A DNA stretch of 64,000 nt from Azolla caroliniana (GCA_043228905.1 JBHGNT010000002.1:10602001-10666000); one strand, 5' to 3'. Shown: positions 26,761 through 62,700, counted from the first letter of the stretch. Translations and numbers: made by a program. Notes: a model not told the origin generated them from the sequence alone.

Positions 26761-27104
26761 CTGTGAAATGTTACGTGCGGAAGCTATACGAAACACAGAA
26801 TATCGATAGAGAAAATAGGTTTAATGGAGAGCTTAAGACACAATGTACGCAGGAGAGATAGAGAGGGAATCAACACACAAAAAAACTGAATTAAAAAATG
26901 TGTAAACTCTGTACATGGATGTGCTTAGAGAGAACTTTTATACAAGTCCATACTGACTGACAGAAGTACTGACACGTACTTCAATGCTCATAACTGAGCG
27001 CCTACACTAACTCCCAAACATATTCCCTCACGGATTATCTGTTCAACAGCCTCCCGGTTTCCGCACCGATCCGGCCTCTTGTTGCGTATCGGTTTACACA
27101 CCGG

Positions 27105-27874
27105 TGTCGTGTTGTTACGCGCGTGCGTGGGGAAAGGCGGGACCACGGGGGTCTTGGACTAGGGAGTGACGGAGCGGTGGAAGCCGTACTTCACCGTTTC
27201 CGGGGCATCCCAGAAGCACATCGGAAGCAACCGAAGGGAGACAGAGAAAGAGAGGGAGCGCGCGCTTGACACCGACTCACGCACACACACAGGCTGACCC
27301 GACTCACGCCCTTATGTACAGGAAACGCAGGAAAGGGGAAGCACGACACCAACAGAGACGCCAATATACACAGACAGACGCAAATGTATATATATAAAAG
27401 GAGGAATACATTCCCGGCCTCGTGCCGAACCAAGGTAGGTTACAACAGTCGTCTGCTGTCAAGCCGCCATCGGGGAGCTCTCGGCTCGTCGTGCCGAGCG
27501 GGGTCTTGCACAGGAGGCCGAGCCGAAGCAAACCCTAAGCCAAACACGAAGGGGGGGGGGGGGGGGGGGGGAAGAAGAAGAAGAAGAAGTGTAACTAACC
27601 CTAAATCTAACGGTATACCCTCTAACGCAAAATGGGCAACCCGTTTCACAAAGGGCGCTCCCTTCCTTTTATAGAACAAGGAGAGGGATGCGTTACAATG
27701 TGGGATAGATCCCGACTTACATGGGATCGTCTCTCCCGACTTGTCTACTCTTCGGCGCCATAAGGGCGCCCTCGTTATTCACACTAAATGTACAAGGGTG
27801 AGCGCACATGCTGCACCCCGCCGATGTAGCCAATGTTTCCCGGTTTCTGCCTCTGGCCGAAATTCTTCACGACA
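27105..27874 (-). mobile_element. Solo Gypsy LTR, 4-bp TSD CCGG
   Basis: TGTCGTG...CACGACA termini; CCGG at 27101-27104 and 27875-27878; ends resemble LTR 49811-55648. Confidence 0.9.
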
Positions 27875-59030: not shown

Positions 59031-59700
59031 CCCAAGAACTCAACTTCTTTGCAATCAAAACTGCACTTCTCTAGTTTGGCATACAAACCATACTCTCTTA
59101 AGCATTGGAGTACCTTCCGGACATGTATATCATGCTCCGCTTGTGTTCTAGAGTAAATCAATAGATCATCTAAATAGATGATACGAAAGATATCTAGAAA
59201 ATCTCGTCTTCTAATCGGATTAGGACCTCAACCTTATTGGATAAAGTTGGATTACTAGAAACACTAGTTGGCACAATTTCAACAATGTGAGACTCATTTC
59301 CATTATCAATAATGCTAGACTCATTTCTATTATCATAGTTAATGTGATGTACCTGACGTCTCAGTTTGTGTGGACAATGAATGGCAATATGTCTTGGACC
59401 TCCACAATATAAGCATAGTCGATTTTCTCGATGATGTTGTTTCTCTTCATCTGATAAAGGTCCTCGTCGCTGGGTCATATCAATCTCCATCGTTGTCAGC
59501 CTATCCATTGGTGTTGGGCTACGTGCTTGCCGTGGAGTTGGGACGGGGCTATATTGTTGCCTTGGAAATTGTGTTGTCACTGATGCATAAGTTGGCGTAA
59601 ATCTTGATCTTGTTTGTTGTTGTTGTCGCTCGGACCGACGCTCAAAAAGCCGATTATCACACCGTATTGCTCAGCTAATAGCTTCTGTAAGGGATTTTGG
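59031..59700 (-). pseudogene. Chromovirus/Ty3-type gag + RT fragments, internally deleted
   Basis: TMEID..RGPLS.EEK......LCLYCG...H...[10 protein letters not shown]...H..HV.KVL..L....LYAKLEKC.F. Confidence 0.8.
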
Positions 59701-62700
59701 ATAGAAACCTCGTGAATTTAGATAGAAAGAAAAGAATATACAAACCTCGTGAATCACAGGAGTATAGTTTTCTTCGTGAATCCCACCAATATAATTTATT
59801 AATGGTGTTTTTTAGAAATATATCCAATTTCCAAATATTTCATACACCTATTACATTGTGCTCCCCATCCTTATATAGTGATGAGAGAGTCTTCACAATC
59901 CATGTTTTTCTATCGATAGACTCTCTGTTATCAAGCGTTTTCTTCTAACTAAAGTTTATCCTAGCGTGAACTTGCCTTTCTATGTGGGACGTTTACTATT
60001 TTAACACTAATGATATGTTAGTGTAATGGTAAGGCTTTACATTATTAACATGGAGGTGGAAGTTTCGAATCTTGCTTTATGCATGTAATATATATTTTTA
60101 TACTTTCTTCTATTTACAAATATGTCTCTTCATCCGGTGAGAGTCTGCCTTCTTCATCCAGTTCTCACTAAGTCTCCTTACCGGGTCCGGTCCTTACCGA
60201 TTCCTCCTTCCGGTTCTCTCCGGGTATTCCATGTCCTATCCAGAGAGACCAAAAATGCAATTTTTCACGTAGTGTGCGAATTACACTACGACACTCGCCC
60301 CTCCGAACTCGCACATCCTCCGGTATGTGTCGAAGCTGTCGGTGGTTGTTAGTCTTGTCCGTCTGGTCTCCGCCCAGTTGGTTTCATCGCTGGTCGTGCT
60401 TGGTTGCCAGCTCCGCTTTGTTTCCGCCCAGTTGGTTTCGTCGCCGGTCGTGCTTGGTTGCCGGCTCCGCCTGGTTTCCGATTCTATTCGGTTGTCGGCT
60501 TCGTCCGGTTTCCGGTTTTCAGTTGCTTGCTCCGCTTGGTTACCGGTTGCCGGCTCTCGTATTTCTCCTTTACTCACAATCCCCTCCAGCTCTCGTCCGT
60601 GGTAGTGCCTTTGCTTGGCCTCTTCCTTATCTTTAGCAACCTTGACTTTTTTCCGGATCGGTCTCGCCCGATCGTCTTTCGGTTGAATCGGCTTCTATTC
60701 CGATTCGTATTCACCCGAATCGGACTCGGTTGATCTATTTTTACCAATTCGGTCCCCTTTCGGTTCGGTTTCGACCGATCAGTTTCTGTCCGGATTTGCT
60801 TTCTTTTCTTTGTTTTCACCGGTCTCGACCAGTTTGACTTTGGACACTTCTTTCCGGATCAGTCTCGTCCAATCAGCTTCCGGTTGGAATGATTTCCGTC
60901 CGCGTCGAACTCGACGAATCAGATTTTGTCCGAATCCACTTCCGCTTGCTTCAGCTTTCATTTAGACCAAAATGTCGGCCAGATCATCTTCCGTCCGGAC
61001 CCACTTTCGGCTTTACATTCTTTGCTCCCACCTCCCGTCTCTCCGGTCTCACATTGGCTCTTGGACACAACCGCCGAAGTCTCTAGAATTAGTGGGCAGG
61101 AATCCTTTGTATTATCGTTGTCGCGAAAATACGACGAGGATACGTGAACGTTAAGGCAAGACCCCGGGGCCTTTGACTAGAGGATATCAAATTCGTGTAT
61201 TTATGTACTAAGAATTACCCGAAATGAGAAAGATTAACAAATTTTATTAACAAGTAGAAAGAAAGATTACAATTAATCCCAAGACTAGGATTACAAAAGT
61301 TTGCTAATGGAGATGGCTAGAGTAATAGATTAGAAGAAATGAGATATGGATTTAATTAGAATATTAGGGTTTTTAGCTTCAATTCGAAAATTAGGGTTTT
61401 TGAGTTGTATGGCTTTGCTTAGGAAATTAGGGTTTATGACTTCCGTAAGGAAATTTAGGGTTCTTGGCTTCGATTAGATAAGAGAGCTCCGAAAGAAAAG
61501 AAAAAAAATTAAGATAATATGGAGAGAGCCTGAGTGTAGGAAAAAAAATGGAATTTTATATGGAGTTCTCTCTTGATCATCTGCATGTCCACTTTTTGTT
61601 GCATGGCCTCTACTTTTAGCTGCTTAGCTTTTTCTTTTAGTTGCATCTATTTTTAGTTGCATGGCTTTTTCTTTTAGTTGCATGCGACCCGTCCACATGA
61701 CCTTTAATTTTTGCATGCACTCCAACTTTAGTTGTTTGCGTTCACATGGCCTTTACTTTAGTTCTCTTCACTTTACTTTAGTCTGTTGCATGATCCAATC
61801 TTCCGTCCGTCCGCGTCCAACCTCGTCCAGTAGCCGGTTCTGCCCGATCGCCGAATCCCTCGCCGGCCGGTTCCATTTTGCTTGTCGGCCGGTTCCGGTT
61901 TGCTTGCCGACCGATTCCGGTTCCGGTTTGCTTGCCGGTTCTGGTTCTGGTTTTGCTTACCGGCCGGTTTCCGGATTTGCTTACCGATCGGTTTCCGGAT
62001 TTGCTTACCAACAGGTTTCCGGATTTGCTTACCCGCCGGTTCCGGTTTTGCTTGCCAGCCGATTCCGGTTCCGCTTGCTTGCCGGCCGGTTCCGGTTCCG
62101 CTTGCTTGCCGGTTCCGCTTCCAATTTTGCTTATCGGCCGGTTTCCGGTTTTTGGGAACTAGGCCACCATCATCCATCAAGACAAAGTGGCCAAAGTGCT
62201 CTTAGCACAAATGAAAAATGAGGGAGCTCAAGGTGCTTATATAGCTAGGGCCTTAAGTTTCCTATCTATGTGGGATAGTTCTAATTTCCCTATCTTCTCA
62301 AACTTCATTTTCACATAACTTGATATGTATTTCTCCATTTTGTATATAGTAAAATACGTTTTGAAGCTCTTGAGTATATCCATATTTCTATAGTAAGCTA
62401 CTAATCTAATCTATAATAATTATTTCATTATTTTCTTACATAGTGTGTGAAGATTCACACGACACCGTCCCCCATTGTTTCACCCATAGCCACCTTCTCG
62501 ACTATCTCTCTGTCGTATACATCGGCTTCGACCTTCGTTTTCTCTCCATGACCTTCCGTCTCTTCGATCTCACGTTGCCTTTCGAACGCAACCACCGGAG
62601 TCTCTGGAATCAGTGGTGAGAAAGTTTCGATACGATCATATGCCATCGATTCGTCCATAGCCACCTCCGATTCGATGTCATCTTTCGTGGCGACCTCCTC

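What the first reader, a model, noticed from the sequence alone, without database searches (positions are those of the whole stretch)
27101..62468. Gypsy family integrates with 4-bp TSDs centred on CpG (NCGN)
Seen: solo LTRs with TGTCRY...RYGACA ends have 4-bp rather than 5-bp TSDs: CCGG (27105), CCGT (30352), ACAG/ACGG (56725), TCGT/CCGT (61119). Single junctions agree: GCGG (36309-36312), GCGG (39596-39599), ACGT (55649-55652), CCAG (45013-45016). The mismatches are C>T or G>A changes, as expected from methyl-C deamination. One exception is CGGT at 25535-25538. The Copia elements in the same window give ordinary 5-bp TSDs. Inference: an integrase with a CpG, possibly methyl-CpG, target preference that would steer insertions into other TEs.
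Basis: partly seen in the sequence, partly recalled or inferred. Interest (0 to 1): 0.7.

Follow-up and report, generated by a model that had tools for sequence, protein, structure and literature searches.

The report
Jumping genes that insert at CG
A group of plant jumping genes inserts almost only at CG base pairs and duplicates four bases when it lands, a habit already noted for the moss Phygy group to which they likely belong; their enzyme likely reads the CG letters themselves, which would by itself steer them into CG-rich repeats.

Summary
Seven related LTR families of one Ty3/gypsy lineage make 4-bp TSDs: 57 of 81 end pairs match exactly at 4 bp and none at 5-7 bp. CG sits at positions 2-3 in 252 of 281 host junctions; 25 more read TG or CA. 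Background is 3.5%. Genome-wide counts give at least 1182 of 1346 and 1830 of 2015. The motif is palindromic V-CG-B, mostly ACGT. No pair has TG/CA on both sides, so the target was CG and decayed later. Copia controls give 5 bp.

The rule is in print: Neumann et al. 2019 list Phygy as 4 bp (100%), NCGN, tRNA-Trp primer, no extra domain. These elements meet those features; I could not build a tree with Phygy references.

The methyl-CpG idea got no support. Flanks are as CpG-rich and repeat-rich as random CG sites (72% vs 73% repeats; random positions 49%; Copia 84%), and target CGs decay no faster than neighbours. No methylome was available, so it is not excluded. The new parts are the strictness and the composition-based explanation of nesting. 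Two look-ups of the scan's earlier notes showed no report of this.

The parts
27105..27874 (-). solo LTR, family A; TSD CCGG at 27101-27104 and 27875-27878; inserted in a Copia element
30352..31038 (+). solo LTR, family B; TSD CCGT at 30348-30351 and 31039-31042; inserted in the same Copia element; uninterrupted paralogues overlap by 4 bp
56725..57453 (-). solo LTR, family C (about 99% identical to its best genomic copies); TSD ACAG 56721-56724 / ACGG 57454-57457
61119..62464 (-). solo LTR, family D; TSD TCGT 61115-61118 / CCGT 62465-62468
36313..37562 (-). family D LTR, one host junction GCGG at 36309-36312; the other side is a PPT-like remnant
38438..39595 (-). 5' LTR, family F; host junction GCGG at 39596-39599; tRNA-Trp PBS at about 38412-38429
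40162..43561 (+). broken Gypsy pol (RT-RH-INT), 60-67% identical to the open pol P0001 of locus L036
43692..45012 (+). 3' LTR, family G, after a PPT; first 77 bp duplicated; host junction CCAG at 45013-45016
45815..49769 (-). broken gag-pro (DUF4100) and start of pol of a family E element
49789..49806 (-). PBS complementary to the 3' end of host tRNA-Trp(CCA)
49811..55648 (-). 5' LTR of the family E element, split by a Copia insertion; host junction ACGT at 55649-55652
25539..26738 (+). F-like LTR with the exceptional junction CGGT (25535-25538), readable as TCGG plus one extra T; right end not found (end coordinate is the last aligned base)
50079..55264 (-). control: Copia element, 5-bp TSD CGATG
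18426..25075 (+). control: Copia element, 5-bp TSD AATAG

Best explanation
These Ty3/gypsy retrotransposons, likely of the Phygy lineage, leave 4-bp duplications centred almost always on CG, likely because their integrase reads the C:G/G:C pair by sequence, whether or not it is methylated. Shown: 4-bp duplication, palindromic V-CG-B motif (ACGT commonest), later CG to TG/CA decay, no chromodomain. Inferred by analogy with the foamy virus intasome: two integrase active sites cut 4 bp apart, the target kinks at the central pyrimidine-purine step, T is excluded at the joining position, and symmetric base contacts narrow YR to CG. Because repeats in this genome are CpG-rich and other DNA is CpG-poor, the CG rule alone would move insertions into other transposons without any chromatin-reading domain.
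For: 57 of 81 end pairs match exactly at 4 bp and 0 at 5-7 bp. 52 of 81 have uninterrupted paralogous sites, all with a modal 4-bp overlap. 252 of 281 junctions are CG, 18 TG, 7 CA, 4 other. Genome-wide: 1182 of at most 1346 non-PBS ends of family C and 1830 of 2015 for a second end motif. 0 of 76 unselected, de-duplicated pairs have TG/CA on both sides, though TG+CA (13.7%) is about four times commoner than CG (3.5%), so flexibility alone does not explain the choice. Position 1 is T in 7 of 281, against 32.5% of background NCGN; thymine exclusion and a central YR are described for retroviral intasomes (PMC4422553, passages). Flank CpG is 0.052 per base against 0.052 for motif-weighted random CG sites (p=0.92) and 0.034 for random positions; repeat hits are 205 of 285 against 437 of 600 (p=0.81). 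Target CGs are decayed in 64 of 301 paralogous empty sites (21%) against 860 of 3765 neighbouring CGs (23%; paired p=0.51). 35 of 285 flanks have no repeat hit, some with only 1-7 CGs in 400 bp. The Drosophila ZAM subgroup targets CGCG (PMC5408687, passages); that Drosophila has little CpG methylation is recalled.
Against: No methylome or biochemistry was available, and CG and methyl-CG are likely nearly collinear in repeats, so the tests are indirect. CpG-poor flanks are somewhat under-used: 11% against 17% expected (binomial p=0.004 on rounded values). With the larger, insertion-enriched library the repeat hits are 88% against 81%. Either could be selection or a mild chromatin or methylation effect. 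No base-reading residue is shown: the model (mean pLDDT 78.8, pTM 0.53) has no DNA. Present-day copies are filtered by selection.
Confidence: 0.72

Rival explanations
1. The integrase, or a partner, recognises symmetric methyl-CpG, so insertions are aimed at silenced DNA.
For: The strict symmetric CG rule; target CGs do decay by transitions in paralogues, so many are probably methylated; mild under-use of CpG-poor flanks; no chromodomain to do the job otherwise. A paper on CpG methylation and retroviral integration in vitro exists (Kitamura 1992; title seen in a reference list; text not held).
Against: No excess decay at target CGs (21% vs 23%); no repeat or CpG enrichment beyond CG density in the evenly sampled library; TpG, the usual methyl-C mimic (recalled), was never seen as a target (0 of 76 pairs); no methyl-binding domain among the five Pfam hits of pol.
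Confidence: 0.13
2. Sequence readout of CG plus a separate chromatin or host-factor tether to heterochromatin.
For: 11% vs 17% CpG-poor flanks; 88% vs 81% repeat hits in the larger library; Phygy nested in Tcn1 was the commonest repeated nesting in P. patens (PMC6911290, passages); Phygy enriched at centromeres of a liverwort (PMC12885004, passages).
Against: No excess in the evenly sampled library (72% vs 73%); Copia shows equal or larger enrichment with no CG rule, which points to selection; no chromodomain.
Confidence: 0.12
3. Artefact of LTR boundary calling or of CG-rich surroundings.
For: LTR termini themselves contain CG (TGTCG...CGACA), and flanks are CG-rich.
Against: LTR ends are fixed by PBS/PPT junctions and paired LTRs; empty sites give a 4-bp overlap; Copia in equally CG-rich flanks has CG at that position in 1 of 59 junctions.
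Confidence: 0.01

Closest known systems
Phygy (non-chromovirus Ty3/gypsy of Physcomitrium patens; Neumann et al. 2019, PMC6317226: passages and three supplements read)
   Same: 4-bp TSD with NCGN, tRNA-Trp PBS, no extra domain, coding region filling the interior. 20 of the 120 listed homologues of the gag-pro end are P. patens proteins, up to 52% identical over 98% of the query.
   Different: A different genome (523 Mb, about 22 large contigs, 42.6% GC). The element examined is 7.3 kb, slightly below Phygy's 7.7-10.0 kb. The motif is refined here to V-CG-B with TpG excluded. Non-autonomous 3.5-kb copies and tandem arrays occur. No tree with Phygy references.
TatI and Selgy (same paper)
   Same: 4-bp TSD; TatI is also primed by tRNA-Trp.
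   Different: TatI has an extra archaeal-type RNase H, not detected here; Selgy uses tRNA-Ala; neither is listed with NCGN.
Drosophila ZAM-subgroup errantiviruses (PMC5408687, passages; PMC3276498, passages)
   Same: Gypsy-group 4-bp TSDs with a palindromic, sequence-specific target that includes CG.
   Different: Their target is CGCG, whose central step is GC, not CG; animal errantivirus lineage.
Prototype foamy virus intasome (PMC4422553, passages; best fold match 4e7k)
   Same: 4-bp TSD, consensus V-Y-R-B, T avoided at the joining site; same integrase fold.
   Different: The foamy virus preference is weak and accepts any YR; here it is near-obligate CG.
Chromoviruses (Tcn1; RLG1 of P. patens, PMC7466625, passages)
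   Same: Gypsy elements concentrated in TE-rich DNA.
   Different: They carry a chromodomain and Tcn1 has 5-bp TSDs; neither holds here.

Membership tests
Ty3/gypsy | Domain order RT-RH-INT, LTRs with TG...CA, PBS and PPT | tested here: met
   P0001 from L036: RVT_1 288-462, RNase H 528-657, H2C2 784-838, rve 858-949; LTR, PBS and PPT
Phygy | 4-bp TSD | tested here: met
   57 of 81 pairs exact at 4 bp, 0 at 5-7; 52 of 52 empty-site sets have a modal 4-bp overlap
Phygy | NCGN target | tested here: met
   252 of 281; 1830 of 2015
Phygy | PBS for tRNA-Trp | tested here: met
   The PBS matches the 3' end of host genes that ARAGORN calls tRNA-Trp(CCA) in 4 of 4 loci
Phygy | No chromodomain, no aRH, no extra ORF; coding fills the interior | tested here: met
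   One element (L036:2148-9458): two long ORFs span 3017-8673; Pfam shows no Chromo or extra RNase H
Phygy | Size 7.7-10.0 kb | tested here: inconclusive
   Family E elements are 7.1-7.3 kb; full-length family D pairs 8.2-8.6 kb
Phygy | Falls in the Phygy clade in RT-RH-INT trees | not testable with these tools
   The REXdb FASTA and per-element table were too large to read. Indirect only: a multi-copy P. patens family is homologous
Chromovirus | Chromodomain after the integrase | tested here: not met
TatI | Extra archaeal-type RNase H | tested here: not met
Methyl-CpG-reading integrase (hypothetical) | Prefers methylated over unmethylated CG | tested here: inconclusive
   Two proxies negative, one weakly positive; no methylome

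The most novel reading that the evidence does not exclude
The integrase of this lineage reads methylated CpG directly, making it a retroelement that uses the host's own silencing mark as its landing signal without a chromodomain.
Probability: 0.13. Interest if true: 0.8.

Novelty: new member of a known kind. Interest (0 to 1): 0.32.

Why it matters
Most plant LTR retrotransposons have almost no target sequence rule. This lineage has a near-obligate dinucleotide rule, which I found in print only as one sentence and one table entry. The data here make it quantitative and suggest a simple way to hide in repeats: pick CG in a genome where CG marks transposon DNA. Thousands of such insertions, some very young, make the methylated-versus-unmethylated question testable against a methylome. 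The paired TSDs also record CpG decay since insertion. A direct methyl-CpG reader would be surprising, but the evidence does not point that way.

Tried and rejected
Methyl-CpG proxies (flank composition, repeat content, decay of the target CG in paralogues) showed no clear excess. A preference for any flexible YR step was rejected: 0 of 76 pairs with TG/CA on both sides. A 5-bp TSD was rejected. Two of 81 Gypsy pairs and 2 of 9 Copia pairs were mis-paired ends of nested or duplicated LTRs; they are left in the totals. Three junctions with mutated termini were dropped before counting, and 15 family C junctions fetched by a CG-containing pattern were dropped for the 281 count. Laying contigs of four public runs on 55700-58400 gave no clean empty allele (one joint 56707-57496 with a 24-base side, not usable). 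No RNA holder was listed. Metagenome relatives (73 loci) were mostly collapsed contigs; the five credible host junctions seen were all NCGN and most loci had the same PBS, but they seem to come from close relatives. Kitamura 1992 could not be read. GingerRoot (PMC6839031, passages) has 6-bp GC-rich TSDs and is not comparable. A DUF4100 literature search gave 0 papers. The structure model and fold search confirmed the fold but cannot name base contacts. Earlier scan notes: none by words; the 8 shown of 39 by place concern other features.

Full report
Observation. All nine cited sites are in the sequence as described. Four solo LTRs have 4-bp flanking repeats: CCGG/CCGG, CCGT/CCGT, ACAG/ACGG and TCGT/CCGT. 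Two Copia elements in the window have exact 5-bp TSDs, CGATG and AATAG. The Gypsy LTRs belong to at least seven families (A-G) that share TGTCG...CGACA ends, one PBS type and similar PPTs.

What the elements are. An element of family E with open frames (L036:2148-9458; LTRs 99.6% identical; TSD CCGT/CCGT) has a gag-pro ORF with DUF4100 and an overlapping pol ORF in the order RT, RNase H, integrase. Pfam shows no chromodomain and no second RNase H. The window's broken pol pieces are 60-80% identical to it. The PBS matches the 3' end of host genes called tRNA-Trp(CCA) in 4 of 4 loci checked. Named homologues come from Riccia, Ceratopteris, Chara and a fungus, Adiantum and Physcomitrium patens (20 of 120 listed rows). 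The host is therefore likely a non-seed land plant; I did not determine the species.

TSD length. Of 81 paired host ends, 57 match exactly over 4 bp and none over 5, 6 or 7 bp; 19 have one mismatch, 3 have two, and 2 are mis-paired. For 52 of the 81, uninterrupted copies of the target exist among the fetched loci, and in all 52 the two flanks overlap by 4 bp as the modal value. Copia controls gave exact 5-bp TSDs in 7 of 9 pairs.

TSD sequence. Among 281 host junctions not selected for CG, the centre is CG in 252, TG in 18, CA in 7 and other in 4. In the evenly spaced background loci alone it is CG in 24 of 31, CA or TG in 6. Genome-wide, family C has 2174 exact LTR ends, 828 of them next to an exact PBS, and 1182 preceded by NCGN: at least 87.8% of the other 1346. 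A second end motif gives 1830 of 2015, 90.8%. Background CG is 3.5% of dinucleotides; Copia has CG at that position in 1 of 59 junctions. Position 1 is A 157, C 78, G 39, T 7 and position 4 is T 133, G 84, C 51, A 13, whereas T is the commonest base before CG in the background (32.5%). The motif is a palindromic V-CG-B, with little signal outside the TSD. Most loci were top BLAST hits or the first matches on two contigs, so the sample leans to young copies.

Decay, not tolerance. In 76 unselected, de-duplicated pairs, 61 are CG/CG, 13 are CG with TG or CA, none has TG/CA on both sides, and 2 are mis-paired. All 25 mismatches are transitions. TG plus CA is four times commoner than CG in the genome, so an integrase that merely wanted a flexible YR step would often leave TG/TG pairs. 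The exception at 25535-25538 reads as TCGG plus one T. L027 shows the same extra T beside an otherwise intact ACGT, matching its partner end L008. This reading is inference.

Steering and methylation. The genome is bimodal: AT-rich 10-kb stretches have CpG O/E of about 0.3-0.5 and GC-rich ones about 1. Gypsy flanks (n=285) have 0.052 CpG per base, equal to motif-weighted random CG sites (0.052, p=0.92) and above random positions (0.034). Repeat hits are 72%, 73% and 49%; Copia is 84% of 56. So the CG rule alone accounts for the shift into repeats, and Copia gets there without it. Target CGs are TG/CA in 21% of empty paralogues against 23% for neighbouring CGs. Against my reading, CpG-poor flanks are 11% rather than the expected 17% (p=0.004), and a larger library enriched for insertion neighbourhoods gives 88% against 81%. 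These proxies do not exclude methyl reading.

Mechanism. Shown: a 4-bp duplication, a strict symmetric CG, T exclusion at the edges, and no chromodomain. Inferred from the foamy virus intasome, which has a 4-bp TSD, a V-Y-R-B consensus, an unstacked central step and base contacts by Ala188 and Arg329 (PMC4422553, passages), and which is the best fold match: the two active sites kink the target at CG and symmetric contacts read the bases. There are two candidate features, both untested. One is a loop one residue shorter than in the foamy virus and Chara proteins just after the second catalytic Asp, where Ala188 lies. The other is a loop before the GPY motif that is conserved in the close homologues and shorter in the Chara and fungal ones.

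What is known. Neumann et al. 2019 (PMC6317226) state that Phygy elements have an insertion preference for NCGN, and tabulate 186 elements as 4 bp (100%), NCGN, tRNA-Trp 81%, no extra domain. Their per-element table and FASTA could not be read, so clade membership rests on features and on homology to a P. patens family. Jedlicka et al. 2019 note GC-rich centres in 4-bp TSDs and Phygy nested in Tcn1 (PMC6911290, passages). Searches for a follow-up found none: Phygy with insertion and CpG gave 0 papers; of 20 listed for NCGN only Neumann holds the word; 18 papers mention Phygy, of which I read passages of three.

Verdict. The feature is real and striking but already described for the lineage these elements most likely belong to: a new member of a known kind, interest 0.32. 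The boldest reading left open, direct methyl-CpG recognition, has a probability of about 0.13.

Noticed in passing
G000:C17:11939107-11950990 (L105-L108, L125): Five family C LTRs at 2,789-bp spacing inside one GCGC/GCGC TSD: a tandem array of a short non-autonomous element. Single units of about 3.5 kb occur elsewhere.
   Followed up: partly
G000:C8:17796786-17823371, C16:4989495-5105657, C5:10105608-10112201: Clusters and tandem arrays of matches to the tRNA-Trp 3' end (63 matches genome-wide); only four loci outside these clusters were checked with ARAGORN.
   Followed up: no
window 33530-34428: Array of a palindromic 20-bp unit (about 30 overlapping copies) between two ORFs at 32885-33520 and 34365-34907 that look transposase-like (recalled, not tested).
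   Followed up: no
window 43692-43846: The first 77 bp of the family G LTR are duplicated in tandem (96% identical).
   Followed up: no
window 11442-13139 and 7237-10100: Broken ORFs resembling a Mutator-type transposase and a LINE reverse transcriptase (by eye, not tested).
   Followed up: no
window 476-2335: Remnant of a different Gypsy pol, only 23-27% identical to P0001.
   Followed up: no
L248-L307 (background): CpG O/E is lowest (0.3-0.5) in AT-rich stretches and near 1 in GC-rich, repeat-rich ones, so transposon DNA is the CpG-rich fraction of this genome.
   Followed up: partly
LTR termini of families A-G: The CG inside the terminal TGTCG...CGACA sits in a T-CG context, the context least used as a target, so the elements' own ends would be poor targets (inference).
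   Followed up: no
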